This document shows, piece by piece, positions 3,206 to 20,259 of a DNA stretch of 64,000 nt. The notes below the pieces were generated by a model that had not been told where the DNA came from, ran no database searches, and saw nothing but the letters and a program-made list of their open reading frames with translations. Each line of letters begins with the position of its first letter. The first letter of the stretch is position 1. The translations under genes were made by a program, and so were the position numbers. Origin of the DNA: a virus; the IMG/VR virus record IMGVR_UViG_3300022752_000021, one strand, 5' to 3'.

Positions 3206-3616
3206 TCATGAGAGCGAAAGAAGACCATGATCAAACTCCCAGTGACAGTTGGGACAAAGCCCAACAATGTTCTTGGGATCATTAATTTCAGAAATAGTAG
3301 CGGTTTCAGGAAAGGCTTTGACGGGTTTGATATGACACATTTCGACATGCTTATCATAACCGCAGTTTTGGCATTTGGTTATGATTCCTTCGAATGCGTC
3401 TCTTGCATGATAGCGGATTTTGGCGTAACGATTGGATACATGACCTCTCTGATAAGTTGATTCTCCTTTGGTGGTGTTTAAACATGATTCTTTCAACTCT
3501 TTCTTGTTCAACTCCCCACAGGGCTTGCAATACTTGCGCCCCGATCCACACCACGCACCACACCGTTTGCACATAATCTTTCTTCTGTATTCTCTGTTAG
3601 TAGTTCGATTTGACAT
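3206..3616 (-). CDS. HNH homing endonuclease (paralog 1)
   Basis: CQNCGYDKHVEMCHIKP...NIVGLCPNCHWEFDH; N-terminal CxxC pairs; GAGGAGG RBS. Confidence 0.85.
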   Translation of the reverse strand: MSNRTTNREYRRKIMCKRCGAWCGSGRKYCKPCGELNKKELKESCLNTTKGESTYQRGHVSNRYAKIRYHARDAFEGIITKCQNCGYDKHVEMCHIKPVKAFPETATISEINDPKNIVGLCPNCHWEFDHGLLSLS

Positions 3617-3664
3617 ATGAATCCCTCCTCAACTTATATATAAAACTGTTGGGATTCAAACAAC

Positions 3665-3735
3665 GCGCTGAGGGCGGACAGTTTCGCAGGCTCGCTTATA
3701 ACGAGTTCAAGCCAGGGCAGCACTGGATCGGCGTA
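3665..3735 (+). tRNA. tRNA-Ile(UAU)-like gene with non-canonical T-loop
   Basis: Acceptor GCGCTGA/TCGGCGT, D-stem GCG/CGC, anticodon arm GCTCG-CTTATAA-CGAGT, T-arm CCAG-GGCAGCA-CTGG. Confidence 0.65.
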
Positions 3736-3810
3736 TTTCTCAAACAGGCTCTTCGCACATGAGTCGCTGCGACAGAAGCCAAACAATCGCGACTCACAGG
3801 AGATTTTGCA

Positions 3811-4134
3811 ATGTTCGGACTTAGCAATAACAGTGTGTTCAAGTATGTCGGTGTTCTCTCTGCTCTCGTCTTCGTGTGGTTCACGTTCCTCTCACCAGAG
3901 AGCGCAAATGCAGCACAGAAGGCAAACTACGGTTTGATTGCCCTGTTTGCATCTCTTGCACTTTACTACTACTCGCAATTCACTCGCGAGCGTTCATTCC
4001 AAGAGAATGACAGTGTGTATCGTCGCATTGATGATGTTGAGCGTGAGTTCAACCTTCGCATCAATGAAGTTGAGCGTGAAGTCAACGAATGTGTTGATAG
4101 CAAGTGCGCTGATTCTTGCAAGCGCGGTCGCTGA
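3811..4134 (+). CDS. Membrane protein with 2 TM segments and a coiled-coil tail
   Basis: AGGAG RBS; two hydrophobic stretches. Confidence 0.65.
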   Translation: MFGLSNNSVFKYVGVLSALVFVWFTFLSPESANAAQKANYGLIALFASLALYYYSQFTRERSFQENDSVYRRIDDVEREFNLRINEVEREVNECVDSKCADSCKRGR

Positions 4135-4204: not shown

Positions 4205-4696
4205 TTAGTGGTCTAGTTCCCAGTGACAATTCGGACAAAGAAATGCAATGTTTTTTCTGGAGTTGATCTCTGAAAGCAGAGTATCATCGCTAAAGGATGA
4301 TATTGGTTTTACATGACATAACTCCGTGTGTTTGTCATAGCCGCATTTTTCACAACAATCAGTTTTCCAACCAAACATAGTTGCAAGTCTTTTTCCGTGT
4401 TGCCTTATTTTTTCATATCGGTGCTTTGAGGCATAACTTGAAGAACTACCAACCGAATCTTTTTTTGTTGTCTTGTTTCCGTAGTCAACACAACGACTCT
4501 GTATAGAGCAAGACTTGCAATGTTTAGGTTTGTCAGACTTTTTTCTTCGTGAACACTTTTTACCACATATCACACACTTGTTTTGTGGTTCGGTGCTTCT
4601 TTTTGGAAAAACTTTATTGTTGTGTTTTGCCGCGCAAGATTTTGAGCAAAATTTAGGATTGTTTGTATGTTGTTGGCAGTTTAGACAAAGATTCAT
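4205..4696 (-). CDS. HNH homing endonuclease (paralog 2)
   Basis: KFCSKSCAA zinc finger; CEKCGYDKHTELCHVKP...LCPNCHWELDH; start set at MNLCLNC. Confidence 0.85.
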   Translation of the reverse strand: MNLCLNCQQHTNNPKFCSKSCAAKHNNKVFPKRSTEPQNKCVICGKKCSRRKKSDKPKHCKSCSIQSRCVDYGNKTTKKDSVGSSSSYASKHRYEKIRQHGKRLATMFGWKTDCCEKCGYDKHTELCHVKPISSFSDDTLLSEINSRKNIAFLCPNCHWELDH

Positions 4697-4706
4697 GTTT
4701 TCCCCC

Positions 4707-4777
4707 GTGAGTATGATGTAACGGCAACATGCCACTCTTCCAAAGTGGCTTTACGGGTTCGAATCCCGTTACTCACA
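4707..4777 (+). tRNA. tRNA-Gly(UCC)
   Basis: Canonical cloverleaf; CCACT-CTTCCAA-AGTGG; TTCGAAT T-loop. Confidence 0.92.
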
Positions 4778-10437: not shown

Positions 10438-10525
10438 TGTAGCACAACAGTTGAGGAACGCACGGGACTGCGGTGCGAACTCCTCTTTCAAAAGTGAAGC
10501 AGTCAATGTTTAGGAGTGTATAGTT

Positions 10526-10819
10526 ATGGCAACTGCAACCAAGACTCGTTCGACCCGTCCGCTCACCAAGACCCGTCAGGTCATCAATCATCTCCGTTCA
10601 GGTAAGCCAATCACCGCGGATCGCGCACTCAACAAGTTTGGTGTGAAGAACCTTCGTGCGATGATTTCTAGCATTCGCGAAGAGTTTGAGAAGTACGGCA
10701 ACTGGCAAATCACGACAACTCAGAACAACCGTGGTGAGACTGTCTACAACATGATCGACACTCACCCTGGTCAGCGCGTCTACGGCTTTGACGCTCAAGG
10801 CAATCGCTTCCGTCTTTGA
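10526..10819 (+). CDS. Winged helix-turn-helix protein
   Basis: VINHLRSGKPITADRALNKFGVKNLRAMISSIR. Confidence 0.7.
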   Translation: MATATKTRSTRPLTKTRQVINHLRSGKPITADRALNKFGVKNLRAMISSIREEFEKYGNWQITTTQNNRGETVYNMIDTHPGQRVYGFDAQGNRFRL

Positions 10820-10953
10820 CTAAGACAGTTGCGTGATTGACTAGACAATCACATCGGTGTTTGAATTCAGAATATTATTATTTGTCCGCGTGGGAACGGC
10901 AGTCGGGGTCAGCGGATGCTCCGATACTAGAAGTCTAGATCTAGACTAGAACG

Positions 10954-10990
10954 ACGGCAGGGGGTAACTCCCCCTGCCGTTCCCTTTTTA
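10954..10990 (+). terminator. Intrinsic terminator
   Basis: ACGGCAGGGGG/CCCCCTGCCGT hairpin followed by a U-tract. Confidence 0.75.
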
Positions 10991-11002
10991 TGGAGAGACT
11001 GC

Positions 11003-11140
11003 ATGGAAAACAGACGGCACAGCGCAGGAAAGGGTGATTCGTATCGCCCCGTAGATCAGAAGAAGTGGGCAGAGAATTGGGACAGAATCTTCGGTAAGAA
11101 GAAATCGAAGAGAAAGACCTCCCCCAAGAAGCCGAAGTAG
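11003..11140 (+). CDS. Small conserved phage protein
   Basis: AGKGDSYRPVDQKKWAENWDRIF; GGAG RBS. Confidence 0.6.
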   Translation: MENRRHSAGKGDSYRPVDQKKWAENWDRIFGKKKSKRKTSPKKPK

Positions 11141-11146
11141 AATCCT

Positions 11147-11605
11147 TCATTTCGGGTGATCGAACAGCCAATGGCAATTTGGGCATAAAATAAGCAGATT
11201 TTCGTCTGCGTTTATTTCCGACAACATTGTCTTTGGATCAAACTCTGATATTGGTTTTCGATGACAAACCTCAACATGCTTATCCCAACCACACTGCTCA
11301 CAAGATTTTGTTTTTGTGGCTTTTGGGGTTGCTCTTGCTCTGCTTCTAACCAGAGCATATGCAGAGGATCGGTGATGTTTTGTGTATATGGCTTCTTCTA
11401 AAGTCATATCTTTCATAAATCTGTTTTCCACAAAGCATTTTTTGCAGTATTTTCTACTGCTACGCAACGGACATCCGCACGAATGACAACTTCCTTCAAC
11501 CGCTCTTTTGATGTGTATCTTATTGTTGGTTGAAGCGGCACATGAACGAGAACAAAACTTTGGATTGTTTGTTTCTTTTCCACAAGCGATACAAATCTTT
11601 GACAT
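11147..11605 (-). CDS. HNH homing endonuclease (paralog 3)
   Basis: NNPKFCSRSCAA; CEQCGWDKHVEVCHRKP...LCPNCHWLFDH; GGAGG RBS before MSKICIAC. Confidence 0.85.
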   Translation of the reverse strand: MSKICIACGKETNNPKFCSRSCAASTNNKIHIKRAVEGSCHSCGCPLRSSRKYCKKCFVENRFMKDMTLEEAIYTKHHRSSAYALVRSRARATPKATKTKSCEQCGWDKHVEVCHRKPISEFDPKTMLSEINADENLLILCPNCHWLFDHPK

Positions 11606-11663
11606 GAGACGAACCTCCGTTAGACTACATATATAGTCGAAACGAAAGTTCAACTCACAAATT

Positions 11664-11739
11664 GCCCGTGTACCGGCACCGCCTTCTAAGCGGTAGAACC
11701 GTAACTGGATCGATGCAGGTTCGACCCCTGCCACGGGTG
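11664..11739 (+). tRNA. tRNA-Arg(UCU)-like gene lacking a D-arm, with enlarged variable region
   Basis: Acceptor GCCCGTG/CACGGGT; ACCGC-CTTCTAA-GCGGT; GCAGG-TTCGACC-CCTGC; only TACCGGC between acceptor and anticodon stems. Confidence 0.7.
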
Positions 11740-11742
11740 CTT

Positions 11743-11925
11743 ATGGCAGACATTCAACAACTCATAGATCGACTGCAAACTGCAAGAGACGAAGTTAGTA
11801 ATCCCCGCGCAAAGATGCATGAATACACAAGCGAGGATCTTGAAACTCTCTTGGTTGATGTCATCTTCGCCCTTCAAGAGAAGACAGAAATTCATTTTGA
11901 GAACTTGACTCAAGGAGCCGATTGA
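11743..11925 (+). CDS. Hypothetical protein
   Basis: MADIQQLIDRLQ... immediately after the tRNA. Confidence 0.5.
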   Translation: MADIQQLIDRLQTARDEVSNPRAKMHEYTSEDLETLLVDVIFALQEKTEIHFENLTQGAD

Positions 11926-11926
11926 A

Positions 11927-12199
11927 ATGTCCACAATGAAGACTCTCAACTCTCGCTATGGCGACTCTCGTAAGATCACAGACAATGGTCATGGTGTGTG
12001 GACCATCGAAGGAAAAGCACATTACTACCGCGTTGGAATGAATGGTGACAACACAAAGATCGGATACTTCGATCCTGAAGGTGGACCATTCATTTCTGTT
12101 GGTAGCGACTATGGTTTCGGCAAGATTGGCGAAATCATCGTTGAAAATACTGAAGAGGGCAACTTCAAAATTCGTGTTGAAGTTGATGATTCGAATTGA
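11927..12199 (+). CDS. Conserved phage hypothetical protein
   Basis: SRYGDSR...FDPEGGPFI; AAGGAG RBS. Confidence 0.65.
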   Translation: MSTMKTLNSRYGDSRKITDNGHGVWTIEGKAHYYRVGMNGDNTKIGYFDPEGGPFISVGSDYGFGKIGEIIVENTEEGNFKIRVEVDDSN

Positions 12200-12376
12200 C
12201 ACTATTGGCGTTCTGACGAAAACGCGGTCTTGACAAGAGATGCTCTTGCGTAAAACGGTCTGTACTAGTAATCGACCGACAAAGTAAGGTAGATGGTGTA
12301 ATCCATCATAGTGTCATCATTCATAGGTCGAGTGAATCGACCACAAGAGGCTTGCAAAAGCCTCTTGTTTTGTTTC
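12197..12376 (+). ncRNA. Candidate multi-stem structured RNA ending in an intrinsic terminator
   Basis: Closing helix TGACACTAT/ATAGTGTCA encloses four hairpins; then GGTCGA/TCGACC and ACAAGAGGCTT/AAGCCTCTTGT plus U-tract. Confidence 0.5.
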
Positions 12377-12408
12377 AGAACTCTAAATATTCATAGGAGG
12401 ACTGAAAC

Positions 12409-12645
12409 ATGGCAAAAAATCTCAACAAGAAGTCCGCTAGAGAAGCAGATGAATATTTTCTATGCACACATGTGAACTCCGAAGGCTATCAATATGAACT
12501 TTTGCTCACCAAGAGCGAGTTTGATAATGGAGTTGCGCGAGCATTACGCAATCCCGAAGACATTCCTGTGAATTTCATAGTGTTGCAAGGTATCAAGGAC
12601 GAAACGAAGTACCCTTGCCCATGTCGCAAAGACGACAAATTGTGA
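12409..12645 (+). CDS. Hypothetical protein
   Basis: CTAAATA late-type promoter, AGGAGG RBS. Confidence 0.6.
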   Translation: MAKNLNKKSAREADEYFLCTHVNSEGYQYELLLTKSEFDNGVARALRNPEDIPVNFIVLQGIKDETKYPCPCRKDDKL

Positions 12646-12765
12646 AATTTCAAGTGTAAAATGCATATTTGAGCGAAAAAAATCAGTTTTTGGTCATTTT
12701 TCCGAACTATTCGGAAAGAATTTTCACTTTTTTTGGTTTTTTCGCCCATCAGACTCATTAGGGGC

Positions 12766-12793
12766 TTGCATTCTGACGATTTACTGTCATACT
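12766..12793 (+). promoter_or_regulatory. Early sigma70-like promoter with A/T-tract upstream region
   Basis: TTGCAT-N16-CATACT with TG extension; ATG 6 nt after the -10 box. Confidence 0.55.
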
Positions 12794-12799
12794 ACCTAC

Positions 12800-13072
12800 A
12801 TGAGCAACTTCCAAGGTGACATCGAACTTGAACGTCTCGCAAACGATTCCATGCAGGATTGGGGCGATGACTTCGACCCCGAAACCGTGGAGCAAGTGGA
12901 GCAACACGTCATGGAGGAGCATGACGAAGCGCAACGCGATTACCCCGAACGATTCAATTCGCGCGAAGAATGGGATGCCTACAACGAAGAATGCGACCGC
13001 CACGATCTTGAACGGGCGCATCTCAAGGGTAATGACATCGACTTCGGTGATCTTTTCGATCTTTCCTTTTGA
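12800..13072 (+). CDS. Small acidic early protein
   Basis: D/E-rich 90 aa; first gene after the promoter. Confidence 0.6.
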   Translation: MSNFQGDIELERLANDSMQDWGDDFDPETVEQVEQHVMEEHDEAQRDYPERFNSREEWDAYNEECDRHDLERAHLKGNDIDFGDLFDLSF

Positions 13073-19959: not shown

Positions 19960-19972
19960 AAGTTTTGGGTTT

Positions 19973-20045
19973 GCTCCCGTAGCGTAGAGGATAGCGCGGG
20001 TCTTTCCTAAAGACCAGGTCATAGGTTCGAATCCTATCGGGAGCG
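19973..20045 (+). tRNA. tRNA-Arg(CCU)
   Basis: GGTCT-TTCCTAA-AGACC; canonical cloverleaf. Confidence 0.92.
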
Positions 20046-20259
20046 TTTGGAGAATTCACAATGCCAAAAGACGAAACTCAAAATGTGGAAACTCGCAAAC
20101 GACTTGATGACATTTACTATGAAGTTCGAATTGGAACTTCAATGTTGGTGTTTCTCATCATCGCAAACATTCTGATTCTTTCTGCTAGTTTGCTTGGCTT
20201 TGTGGTGTGGCTTGACACCACTCAAACCACCAAGTAAGATACACACACAGGAGGCTCAT

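What the first reader, a model, noticed from the sequence alone, without database searches (positions are those of the whole stretch)
11664..11739. D-arm-less tRNA-Arg(UCU) with a D-loop-like motif 3' of the anticodon arm
Seen: strong acceptor, anticodon and T arms and a normal 76-nt length, yet only 7 nt (TACCGGC) replace the D-arm. A 20-nt variable region carries AACTGGAT, resembling a tRNA-Arg D-loop, and CCGG could pair with CTGG. Inference: a rearranged tRNA architecture that rebuilds the elbow from the variable region, or a decoy for anticodon nucleases. Standard tRNA scanners may miss it.
Basis: partly seen in the sequence, partly recalled or inferred. Interest (0 to 1): 0.7.

Follow-up and report, generated by a model that had tools for sequence, protein, structure and literature searches.

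The report
Phage arginine tRNA with rewired core
This 76-base gene is very probably a working phage arginine tRNA in which half of the D-arm has been moved to the far side of the anticodon arm, a layout that breaks the textbook cloverleaf, recurs in over 150 distinct sequences on phage contigs, and is missed or mislabelled by standard tRNA finders.

Summary
Window 11664-11739(+) has a 7-bp acceptor stem, an anticodon arm (UCU) and a T arm. Only 7 nt sit where the D-arm belongs, and a D-loop-like UAACUGGAU follows the anticodon arm. ARAGORN and Rfam miss it.

It is not a wreck. I collected 154 distinct relatives, almost all from phage contigs; the searched bacterial genomes yielded one.
- All four helices covary, including a 3-bp helix (11674-11676 with 11699-11701) that encloses the anticodon arm.
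- The base at "position 15" covaries with the base just 5' of the T stem (A/U, G/C), like the canonical Levitt pair.

Best reading: nt 10-21 (D-stem 5' strand plus D-loop) sit between 47 and 48, so the L-shape is threaded in a different order.

Evidence for use in translation:
- U8, A14, G18G19, A20 and C35 are kept.
- AGA is this phage's commonest Arg codon.
- A sigma70-like promoter is conserved upstream.
- Rewired and ordinary tRNA-Arg(UCU) rarely share a tRNA cluster.

Charging and decoding are untested.

I found no paper describing this. Earlier agents of this scan reported the same family on other DNA (Felix O1-like and giant phages).

The parts
11599..11626 (+). Sigma70-like promoter, TTGACA - 16 nt - TAGACT, about 37 nt upstream of the tRNA 5' end. 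Its -35 box overlaps the start codon of the divergent HNH gene.
   Evidence: Consensus scan, 10 of 12 matches. In the syntenic relative L017 the -35 box is identical and the -10 box reads TATACT. Function is inferred, not shown.
11664..11739 (+). The whole rewired tRNA-Arg(UCU) gene, 76 nt. No CCA is encoded; CTT follows.
   Evidence: It scores 90.7 bits with family model R1, against 33 bits or less for ordinary tRNAs. The window sequence was one of the 31 used to build R1.
11664..11670 (+). Acceptor stem, 5' strand (nt 1-7). It pairs with 11732-11738.
   Evidence: 7 of 7 pairs covary across 31 sequences and 99.5% of cells are paired.
11671..11673 (+). U8 and A9 (invariant), then C, which corresponds to canonical position 22 and faces U11702.
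   Evidence: U8 and A9 are invariant in A1. In all 154 members the connector starts with UA.
11674..11676 (+). Helix X, 5' strand (CGG), corresponding to canonical D-stem positions 23-25. It pairs with 11699-11701.
   Evidence: 3 of 3 pairs change on both sides and 90% of cells are paired. Replicated on a second set, A3.
11677..11677 (+). Single nucleotide between helix X and the anticodon stem, corresponding to position 26.
   Evidence: This spacer is always 1 nt in the 154 members.
11678..11694 (+). Anticodon arm: a 5-bp stem and the loop CUUCUAA. The anticodon UCU lies at 11685-11687, with U33, A37 and A38.
   Evidence: 5 of 5 stem pairs covary. One compensatory pair change relative to L017.
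11695..11698 (+). A-rich linker AGAA, corresponding to variable-loop positions 44-47.
   Evidence: The linker is 3-5 nt in 148 of 154 members and is A-rich.
11699..11702 (+). Helix X, 3' strand (CCG), corresponding to positions 10-12, followed by the invariant U that corresponds to position 13.
   Evidence: In all 154 members the next two nucleotides are UA.
11703..11713 (+). Relocated D-loop AACUGGAUCGA, read as A14, A15, G18 G19, A20 and a final A (A21-like).
   Evidence: The A before position 48 is present in 153 of 154 members. In members not fixed by the search patterns, the Arg ones have A after GG.
11714..11714 (+). U48-equivalent, the proposed Levitt-pair partner of A15 (11704).
   Evidence: Position 15 / position 48 combinations: A/U 126, G/C 16, G/G 11, G/U 1. 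In the 19 members not fixed by the patterns: A/U 16, G/C 3.
11715..11731 (+). T arm: GCAGG-UUCGACC-CCUGC, with the canonical GTTCGA T-loop motif.
   Evidence: 99.4% of cells are paired.
11732..11739 (+). Acceptor stem, 3' strand, and discriminator G73.
11147..11605 (-). Divergent HNH endonuclease gene (152 aa, with a GGAGG ribosome-binding site). It travels together with the tRNA.
   Evidence: PHROG 8048, E = 1.8e-6. The HNH-plus-tRNA unit is syntenic in L017, and synteny ends 5 nt after the tRNA. A paralogue at 4205-4735 is 44% identical.
11743..11925 (+). 60-aa ORF that starts 3 nt after the tRNA 3' end. It is probably co-transcribed and is not part of the RNA element.
   Evidence: No relatives were found, and it is not conserved in L017.

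Best explanation
Window 11664-11739(+) is a genuine, selectively maintained phage tRNA gene with anticodon UCU, reading AGA and, by wobble, AGG. It belongs to a phage-specific family in which the segment corresponding to canonical nt 10-21 (the D-stem 5' strand plus the D-loop) lies between positions 47 and 48 rather than between 9 and 22.

Chain order: 1-9 | 22-26 | anticodon arm 27-43 | 44-47 | 10-13 | 14-21 | 48 | T arm | acceptor 3' strand.

Shown by comparison:
- The four helices, including the D-stem-like helix X that encloses the anticodon arm.
- The covariation between positions 15 and 48.
- The invariant U8, A9, A14 and A21-like A.

Inferred:
- Helix X stacks on the anticodon stem as a normal D-stem does.
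- The relocated loop puts G18 G19 against the T-loop. U8-A14 and N15-N48 form, giving an ordinary L-shape threaded in a different order.
- The RNA is transcribed from the sigma70-like promoter at 11599-11626, 5'-trimmed by RNase P, and given CCA by the host enzyme.
- It is charged by host ArgRS through A20, C35 and U36, and supplies the phage's most used arginine codon, AGA.
For: 1. Family size. 31 distinct UCU relatives came from one pattern scan. Two further scans and model R1 brought the total to 154 distinct members, covering all six Arg anticodons.
2. Covariation on the MAFFT alignment A1. 96.6% of cells are paired. The covariation score is 0.937, against 0.254 in shuffles (0 of 500 reach it) and about 0.15 for slid controls. 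In helix X, 3 of 3 pairs change on both sides. This was replicated on A3.
3. Tertiary signal. Position 15 / position 48 combinations are A/U 126, G/C 16, G/G 11. The A before position 48 is present in 153 of 154 members, although no search pattern fixed it.
4. About half of the first 31 members, and 66 of 98 in a strict parse, encode CCA.
5. 141 of 157 carrier loci also hold ordinary tRNAs, with a median of 7. The element therefore sits in tRNA clusters.
6. Complementarity. A canonical Arg(UCU) occurs in 5 of 58 clusters that have a rewired UCU, against 25 of 64 that do not (Fisher p = 1e-4).
7. Moving the segment back in silico makes ARAGORN of 154 (104 as Arg). It of 154 in the native order and 56 of 154 with a shuffled segment.
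8. In this window:
   - AGA makes up 29.5% of Arg codons, the commonest.
   - No canonical Arg(UCU) is found in the 64 kb.
   - The promoter is conserved in L017.
   - The tRNA is 71 of 76 identical to L017's, with one compensatory pair change, while the neighbouring HNH gene is only about 70% identical.
9. The family is present in cultured phages: Mildred21, Wildcat, Bas93 and Slicko01 score 57-72 bits.
Against: - There is no expression, processing, aminoacylation or decoding data.
- The three-dimensional model is inferred from sequence only.
- Nearest-neighbour folding does not pick the family structure. It scores -25.6 kcal/mol against an MFE of -27.3, with z = -1.4 for the whole RNA.
- Helix X is only 3 bp. 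Its third pair is unpaired in 9 of 31 members.
- G15/G48 in 11 members is not isosteric with the usual Levitt pair.
- A20 and the UAACUGGA motif were fixed by my search patterns in most members. Their conservation is informative only in the 19 unconstrained ones.
- Members are phylogenetically related, so the counts are not independent events.
- The complementarity test used partial loci of 15 kb or less.
- The shuffled-segment control still gave 56 of 154 ARAGORN calls, so that test is supportive rather than decisive.
Confidence: 0.75

Rival explanations
1. A tRNA-shaped decoy or anti-defence RNA. It mimics tRNA-Arg to soak up or mislead a host anticodon nuclease or another tRNA-binding defence protein, but is not itself used in translation.
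For: - The family is confined to phages.
- It is strongly biased to arginine in my sample.
- Some phages carry both a canonical and a rewired UCU gene: L005, L014 and L036.
- Some phages carry arrays of several rewired Arg isoacceptors.
Against: - Rewired and canonical genes with the same anticodon tend to exclude each other (5 of 58 against 25 of 64). That fits substitution, not addition.
- Everything needed for charging and decoding is kept: a 7-bp acceptor stem, the discriminator, an often-encoded CCA, the T-loop, A20, C35 and a 7-nt anticodon loop with U33 and A37.
- AGA is this phage's commonest Arg codon, and no other UCU tRNA is in the window.
- The arginine bias is partly an artefact of search patterns that fixed an Arg-type D-loop.
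Confidence: 0.1
2. A D-armless tRNA with a class-II-like extra arm. The 20 nt after the anticodon arm would fold on themselves, as in Rfam's tRNA-Sec alignment or the reader's CCGG:CUGG idea, and the 5' connector would be unpaired. This resembles mitochondrial D-armless tRNAs.
For: - The best Rfam match aligns the region as a variable arm.
- The MFE fold of the single sequence pairs parts of this region differently from the family structure.
Against: - CCGG:CUGG is paired in only 72.6% of cells, and 0 of 4 pairs change on both sides.
- The 3 nt before UAACUGGAU vary (CCG, GAG, GGA, GGG, GUG, GCG and others) in step with nt 11-13, not with the constant UGG.
- The Rfam score is half the family's threshold.
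Confidence: 0.05
3. A cis element rather than a tRNA. It could be a tRNA-like processing signal (an RNase P punctuation mark) for the downstream mRNA, or the homing target or remnant associated with the adjacent HNH endonuclease.
For: - The downstream ORF starts 3 nt after the element.
- An HNH gene is adjacent here, in L017 and in Bas93.
- Synteny with L017 ends 5 nt after the element.
Against: - In most of the 157 carrier loci the element sits among ordinary tRNA genes, without this ORF and without an obligatory HNH gene.
- The conserved anticodon loop, the restriction to Arg anticodons and the encoded CCA are not needed for a processing signal.
- HNH genes commonly lodge in phage tRNA clusters (general knowledge). 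Paralogues in this window also sit next to ordinary tRNAs.
Confidence: 0.05
4. A decayed tRNA pseudogene or a chance tRNA-like arrangement.
For: Standard finders do not call it. The T5-like phages carry a degenerate look-alike that scores only 29 bits.
Against: There are 154 distinct relatives with compensatory changes in every helix. The element is more conserved than its protein-coding neighbour.
Confidence: 0.02

Closest known systems
Canonical class I tRNA-Arg (Rfam RF00005), e.g. E. coli argU tRNA-Arg(UCU), phage T4 tRNA-Arg, and this window's own tRNA-Arg(CCU) at 19972-20046
   Same: - 7-bp acceptor stem.
- 5-bp anticodon stem with a 7-nt loop (U33, C35, A37).
- 5-bp T stem with a GTTCGA loop.
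- U8, A14, G18 G19, an Arg-type A20, an A21-like A and a Y48-type base.
- Overall length 73-82 nt.
- Location in phage tRNA clusters.
- When the segment is moved back in silico, ARAGORN of 154 as tRNA-Arg.
   Different: - Segment order differs. The D-stem 5' strand plus D-loop lie after the anticodon arm, so the D-stem closes around the anticodon arm rather than around the D-loop.
- It fails the Rfam tRNA gathering score in this window. Two cultured-phage members pass barely, at 29.5-29.7 against 29.
- ARAGORN of 154 in the native order, none of them as Arg.
Metazoan mitochondrial D-armless tRNAs, e.g. human mt-tRNA-Ser(AGY) (PMC9427863) and Ascaris mt-tRNA-Ser(UCU) (review PMC7609411)
   Same: There is no hairpin between the acceptor and anticodon stems. 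The anticodon arm is effectively extended by extra base pairs.
   Different: - Per those papers, the mitochondrial tRNAs are shortened, lack G18 G19 and the D-loop/T-loop contact, and need adapted partner proteins.
- This family keeps full length, a D-loop sequence, a canonical T-loop and a covarying 15/48 pair.
- It must work with ordinary bacterial enzymes.
Circularly permuted and split tRNA genes (red alga Cyanidioschyzon; Archaea, PMC3218864)
   Same: The order of tRNA segments in the gene departs from the standard order.
   Different: - There the whole gene is permuted or split, and processing restores a canonical mature tRNA.
- Here the 5' and 3' acceptor strands are in normal order. Only an internal segment is displaced, so the mature RNA itself would have the new topology.
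Allo-tRNAs and other 8/4 or 9/3 tRNAs of bacteria and phages (PMC5389517), and tRNA-Sec (RF01852, the best Rfam match)
   Same: Naturally occurring non-canonical tRNA designs, some in phage tRNA clusters, found by custom searches.
   Different: - Those change the lengths of the acceptor and T stems and keep the D-arm in place with a long variable arm.
- This family keeps 7/5 stems, has no variable hairpin and relocates half of the D-arm.
- The tRNA-Sec score is 25.3 against a threshold of 47.

Membership tests
tRNA (functional elongator tRNA, Rfam RF00005 clan) | 7-bp acceptor stem with a discriminator base and a 3' CCA (encoded or added) | tested here: met
   7 of 7 pairs, all covarying. Discriminator is G. 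CCA is not encoded in the window but is encoded in about half of the relatives.
tRNA (functional elongator tRNA, Rfam RF00005 clan) | 5-bp anticodon stem and 7-nt loop with U33 and a purine at 37 | tested here: met
   ACCGC-CUUCUAA-GCGGU. 5 of 5 stem pairs covary.
tRNA (functional elongator tRNA, Rfam RF00005 clan) | 5-bp T stem with a GTTCRA T-loop | tested here: met
   GCAGG-UUCGACC-CCUGC.
tRNA (functional elongator tRNA, Rfam RF00005 clan) | D-arm hairpin between position 9 and the anticodon arm (cloverleaf order) | tested here: not met
   Only UACCGGC lies there. The D-stem partner and the D-loop lie 3' of the anticodon arm.
tRNA (functional elongator tRNA, Rfam RF00005 clan) | Score at or above the curated Rfam threshold, or a call by ARAGORN | tested here: not met
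   No match at gathering score. ARAGORN is silent.
tRNA (functional elongator tRNA, Rfam RF00005 clan) | Core tertiary contacts that build the L-shape: U8-A14, N15-N48, and G18 G19 with the T-loop | tested here: inconclusive
   The bases are present. Positions 15 and 48 covary: A/U 126, G/C 16, G/G 11. No structural data exist.
tRNA (functional elongator tRNA, Rfam RF00005 clan) | Expressed, processed, aminoacylated and used on the ribosome | not testable with these tools
tRNA-Arg identity (bacterial ArgRS substrates) | A20 in the D-loop, C35, and U36 or G36. These identity elements are from established knowledge; the review PMC9976931 was listed in searches but not read here. | tested here: met
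   In the window, G18 G19 A20 reads GGA at 11708-11710, with C35 and U36. In members not fixed by the search patterns, 17 of 18 Arg members have A directly after GG (the other reads GGGA), and the Ile member has U. Charging itself was not tested.
   The window scores 90.7 bits, though it was one of the 31 sequences used to build R1. Other members score 45-94 bits and ordinary tRNAs 33 bits or less.
Mitochondrial-type D-armless tRNA | No D-stem equivalent, loss of the G18 G19 / T-loop contact, reduced length | tested here: not met
   Helix X covaries. GG and a canonical T-loop are present. Length is 76 nt.
Permuted or split tRNA gene | The 3' half is encoded upstream of the 5' half, or on another locus. 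The mature tRNA is canonical after processing. | tested here: not met
   The acceptor 5' and 3' strands are in normal order within one 76-nt unit.
tRNA-Sec (RF01852) | 8/5 or 9/4 acceptor/T stems, 6-bp D-stem, long variable arm, anticodon UCA | tested here: not met
   7/5 stems, anticodon UCU, and 25.3 bits against a threshold of 47.

The most novel reading that the evidence does not exclude
These would be the first natural tRNAs whose mature chain threads the L-shape in a different order, through an internal circular permutation of the D/anticodon domain, while still working with ordinary bacterial ArgRS, EF-Tu and ribosomes. On this reading phages keep the design because it makes their own arginine tRNAs invisible to a host defence or toxin that recognises the canonical D-arm side of tRNA-Arg. 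They could then replace a depleted host pool.
Probability: 0.2. Interest if true: 0.9.

Novelty: new variant of a known kind. Interest (0 to 1): 0.78.

Why it matters
The cloverleaf order of tRNA segments is treated as universal outside animal mitochondria. A large phage-borne class that keeps every core contact but strings the segments differently has three consequences.

1. It would show that the L-shape, not the cloverleaf connectivity, is what the translation apparatus requires.
2. Phage tRNA repertoires are being under-counted. The AGA reader of this phage is invisible to ARAGORN and Rfam. In GenBank, relatives are labelled 'tRNA-OTHER' or 'tRNA-Ser', or are not annotated at all.
3. It offers a natural scaffold for tRNA engineering, and a test case for which enzymes read the D-arm side of a tRNA: RNase P, ArgRS, the t6A and D-loop modification enzymes, and anticodon nucleases.

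Carriers include cultured phages of E. coli (AidaStucki_Bas93), Mycobacterium smegmatis (Wildcat) and Streptomyces (Mildred21). The question is therefore directly testable at the bench.

Tried and rejected
- **DNA similarity.** A blastn search of 10500-13000 against 50,697 phage records found no match.
- **Whole genome.** None is held for this window.
- **Exact 28-mer.** A search for a 28-mer of the element in IMG/VR found 0 hits.
- **Neighbour-gene routes.**
  - The 90-aa ORF at 11927-12199 led to L001, which is not syntenic upstream and has no tRNA.
  - The 60-aa ORF has no relatives.
- **Single-sequence folding.** The MFE differs from the family structure and z is only -1.4. Thermodynamics alone neither finds nor supports the fold.
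- **Coding reading.** The + strand frame is open through the element (TTG at 11662 to 11925). However, 27 open codons are expected by chance in roughly a quarter of frames, and the downstream part is not conserved in L017. Rejected.
- **Reverse-strand tRNA.** Considered by eye (loop UUAGAAG) and rejected, because it has no T arm and all relatives keep the + strand features.
Rejected.
- **Bacterial genomes.** 4 of the 5 pattern hits were chance matches.
- **Literature.** Seven full-text searches and two papers checked by term search gave no description of this architecture. The library lacks most subscription journals, so this is absence of evidence only.
- **Window 3620-3830.** It has no Rfam match at E of 1 or less, no ARAGORN call and no R1 match.

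Full report
**What is there**

The stretch 11664-11739(+) reads, in order:
- GCCCGUG
- UA
- C
- CGG
- C
- ACCGC-CUUCUAA-GCGGU
- AGAA
- CCG
- U
- AACUGGAUCGA
- U
- GCAGG-UUCGACC-CCUGC
- CACGGGU
- G

The acceptor stem (7 bp), the anticodon arm (UCU) and the T arm are textbook. No hairpin stands where the D-arm belongs, and a D-loop-like UAACUGGAU follows the anticodon arm.

ARAGORN finds nine ordinary tRNAs in the window but not this one. Rfam at gathering score does not report it either. The best sub-threshold match is tRNA-Sec at 25.3 bits, against a threshold of 47.

The window is phage DNA. It carries a CobS-like protein, a large peptidase about 30% identical to cyanomyovirus proteins, and HNH endonucleases. 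No whole genome is held for it.

The element lies between a divergent HNH endonuclease gene (11147-11605, minus strand) and a 60-aa ORF that starts 3 nt after it.

**It is a family, not an accident**

A pattern demanding only CUUCUAA, then AACUGGAU, then GGUUCGA, with flexible gaps, found 36 IMG/VR loci. Each has a 6-7-bp acceptor stem of different sequence, UA at positions 8-9, and the same layout. That gives 31 distinct sequences including the window, about half with an encoded CCA.

ARAGORN calls none of them, although most sit among ordinary tRNA genes.

The same pattern over one genome from each of 185,579 bacterial and archaeal species gave 5 sites. Only one is a true member, on a 16-kb MAG contig. 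The family is therefore essentially phage-borne.

A covariance model built from the 31 sequences (R1) separates members (45-94 bits) from ordinary tRNAs (33 bits or less).

Two further scans that did not fix the anticodon raised the count to 154 distinct members. Their anticodons:

| Anticodon | Members |
|---|---|
| UCU | 76 |
| ACG | 43 |
| UCG | 12 |
| CCU | 10 |
| CCG | 8 |
| GCG | 4 |
| UAU | 1 |

The search patterns fixed an Arg-type D-loop, so this arginine bias is partly built in. Model hits in the same loci also include Ile(UAU), Lys(CUU) and CAU members.

Cultured phages carry the family:

| Phage | GenBank annotation | Notes |
|---|---|---|
| Streptomyces phage Mildred21 | 'tRNA-OTHER' | |
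| Alishewanella phage Slicko01 | 'tRNA-Ser' | |
| Mycobacteriophage Wildcat | unannotated | anticodon CCU |
| E. coli phage AidaStucki_Bas93 | unannotated | next to an HNH gene |

**Secondary structure**

On the MAFFT alignment A1, the structure has four helices: acceptor, helix X (nt 11-13 with the 3 nt just 5' of UAACUGGAU), anticodon stem and T stem.
- 96.6% of cells are paired.
- The covariation score is 0.937, against 0.254 in shuffles (0 of 500 reach it) and about 0.15 when partners are slid.
- All three helix X pairs change on both sides: C-G, U-A, G-C and A-U types.
- A second, largely different set (A3) gives the same result. A3 was aligned to the model and so leans towards it.

In the window, helix X is 11674-11676 (CGG) with 11699-11701 (CCG).

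Thermodynamic folding of the single sequence does not select this fold: -25.6 kcal/mol against an MFE of -27.3, with z = -1.4. The support is therefore comparative.

**Tertiary signal and the permutation model**

After helix X every member continues with U-A. The next base, "position 15", covaries with the base immediately 5' of the T stem, "position 48":
- In all 154 members: A/U 126, G/C 16, G/G 11, G/U 1.
- In the 19 members whose D-loop was not fixed by my patterns: A/U 16, G/C 3.
- One Ile member shows U/A.

A/U and G/C are the two usual forms of the canonical 15-48 Levitt pair. From my own knowledge, G/G is known from E. coli tRNA-Cys.

The base before position 48 is A in 153 of 154 members, although no pattern fixed it.

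Read against standard numbering, the chain is: 1-7, U8, A9, then 22-25 and 26, the anticodon arm 27-43, a 3-5-nt A-rich linker (44-47), then 10-13, A14, N15, G18 G19, A20, A21, then N48 and the T arm.

In other words, the segment 10-21 sits between 47 and 48 instead of between 9 and 22. This is a circular permutation of the D/anticodon domain.

In canonical tRNA structures the three places where the chain is re-joined are neighbours. A9 lies against the D-stem at 12-23. Positions 44 and 45 lie at 26 and 10-25. A21 lies next to U8-A14 and 48. These contacts are established structural knowledge. Their application here is my inference.

As a computational check, I moved the segment back in silico for all 154 members. 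ARAGORN then (104 as tRNA-Arg). It in the native order and 56 when the moved segment is shuffled.

**Is it used as a tRNA?**

This is not shown directly. The indirect evidence favours translation:
1. The identity elements of bacterial tRNA-Arg (A20, C35, U36 or G36) are present. In unconstrained members, A follows GG in the Arg members, whereas three of four non-Arg members have U.
2. 141 of 157 carrier loci contain ordinary tRNA genes, with a median of 7.
3. Among tRNA clusters, a canonical Arg(UCU) is present in 5 of 58 that have a rewired UCU, against 25 of 64 that do not (Fisher p = 1e-4). ACG shows the same tendency. For example, the 32-tRNA array of L015 lacks a canonical UCU and has the rewired one. 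This is the pattern of substitutes, not of an added decoy. The caveats are partial loci and related phages.
4. In this window, AGA is the commonest arginine codon (29.5% of Arg codons, 15.9 per thousand). No other UCU tRNA is present in the 64 kb.
5. A sigma70-like promoter, TTGACA-16-TAGACT, lies at 11599-11626. It is conserved in the closest relative, L017, where the -10 box reads TATACT.
6. In L017 the tRNA is 71 of 76 identical with one compensatory stem change, the adjoining HNH gene is only about 70% identical, and synteny stops 5 nt after the tRNA.

**Mechanism proposed, with status of each step**

| Step | Status |
|---|---|
| Transcription from the promoter | inferred |
| RNase P and 3' trimming, with CCA addition because none is encoded here | inferred |
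| Folding into four helices | shown by covariation |
| Stacking of helix X on the anticodon stem, and docking of the relocated G18 G19 loop on the T-loop | inferred; supported by the 15/48 covariation and the invariant U8, A14 and A21-like A |
| Charging by host ArgRS | inferred from identity elements |
| Reading AGA | inferred from the anticodon and codon usage |

A plausible origin is duplication of nt 10-21 into the variable loop, followed by loss of the original copy. This is speculation.

**Rivals**

- **Decoy or anti-defence RNA:** about 0.10. It is disfavoured by the complementarity and by the retention of all charging features. It is not excluded, and some phages do carry both forms.
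- **D-armless tRNA with an extra arm:** about 0.05. Contradicted.
- **Processing signal or homing remnant:** about 0.05. Contradicted by the varied contexts.
- **Pseudogene or chance:** about 0.02. Contradicted by the covariation.

**Comparison and novelty**

The element works like an ordinary class I tRNA-Arg, but it fails the defining cloverleaf order and the curated Rfam score.

It is not a mitochondrial-type D-armless tRNA, because it keeps a D-stem equivalent, GG, a canonical T-loop and full length. It is not a permuted or split tRNA gene, because the acceptor strands are in normal order. It is not an allo-tRNA or tRNA-Sec, because it has 7/5 stems and no variable hairpin.

Seven full-text searches and two papers checked by term search found no description. 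The library is incomplete, so publication elsewhere cannot be excluded.

Earlier agents of this same scan reached the same reading on other DNA, in Felix O1-like and giant phages. I saw those notes only after recording my own reading, and I do not count them as evidence.

I rate this a new variant of a known kind: real, widespread, apparently undescribed, and directly testable in cultured phages.

Noticed in passing
L029:3583-3659(-), L036:3144-3223(-), L236:10911-10987(+), L010:11003-11080(-), L036:2612-2688(-): The same rewired layout occurs with non-arginine anticodons: Ile UAU (three members), Lys CUU and CAU. They score 45-59 bits with R1. Their relocated loops differ from the Arg type: most have U rather than A after GG, and one has U15/A48. 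The design is therefore not restricted to tRNA-Arg.
   Followed up: partly
L004:9282-9372, L010:10655-10744, L011:3880-3971, L015:6134-6225 (all minus strand): ARAGORN calls unusually long (90-92 nt) tRNA-Ile(UAU) genes, with the anticodon at position 31-33, in several carrier phages. This may be the 'two anticodon arms' Ile tRNA that an earlier scan note (e1-121598) describes.
   Followed up: no
A hairpin with loop CUUAUAA and a CACUGGAU motif are there. However, I see no T arm, and ARAGORN, Rfam (E of 1 or less) and model R1 all find nothing. Unresolved.
   Followed up: partly
window 3206-3616(-), 4205-4735(-), 11147-11605(-): Small HNH endonuclease genes lie head-to-head with tRNA genes. 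The 4205-4735 gene is 44% identical to the 11147-11605 gene, and its 5' end abuts tRNA-Gly at 4707. I did not compare the 3206-3616 ORF. The HNH-plus-tRNA unit at 11147-11739 is syntenic in L017, with the break 5 nt after the tRNA. Bas93 also has an HNH gene beside its rewired tRNA.
   Followed up: partly
L044:2974-3045 (Escherichia phage DaisyDussoix; similar sites in many T5-like Salmonella and E. coli phages): T5-like phages hold a weak relative: R1 29 bits, Rfam tRNA 29.3 bits. It has UAACUGG and a good T arm, but two acceptor mismatches and no clear anticodon arm. It overlaps an annotated hypothetical CDS on the opposite strand. It may be a decayed copy.
   Followed up: partly
L046:1994-2066 (mycobacteriophage Wildcat, between tRNA-Gly gene 116 and tRNA-Gln gene 117): An unannotated rewired tRNA-Arg(CCU) whose anticodon loop reads CCCCUAC, so it has C rather than the near-universal U at position 33.
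   Followed up: no
e.g. L203:4022-4095, L204:2273-2346, L210:5780-5853, L164:5955-6028: A subgroup, mostly with CCG and CCU anticodons, has G15 with G rather than C at the position before the T stem (11-13 members). This recalls the G15-G48 pair of E. coli tRNA-Cys.
   Followed up: no
L043:1501-1575 (Mildred21), L047:1997-2075 (Slicko01), L045:1986-2064 (Bas93): Public annotation of family members is inconsistent. The three examples are labelled 'tRNA-OTHER', 'tRNA-Ser' (although the anticodon is UCU), and not annotated at all.
   Followed up: yes
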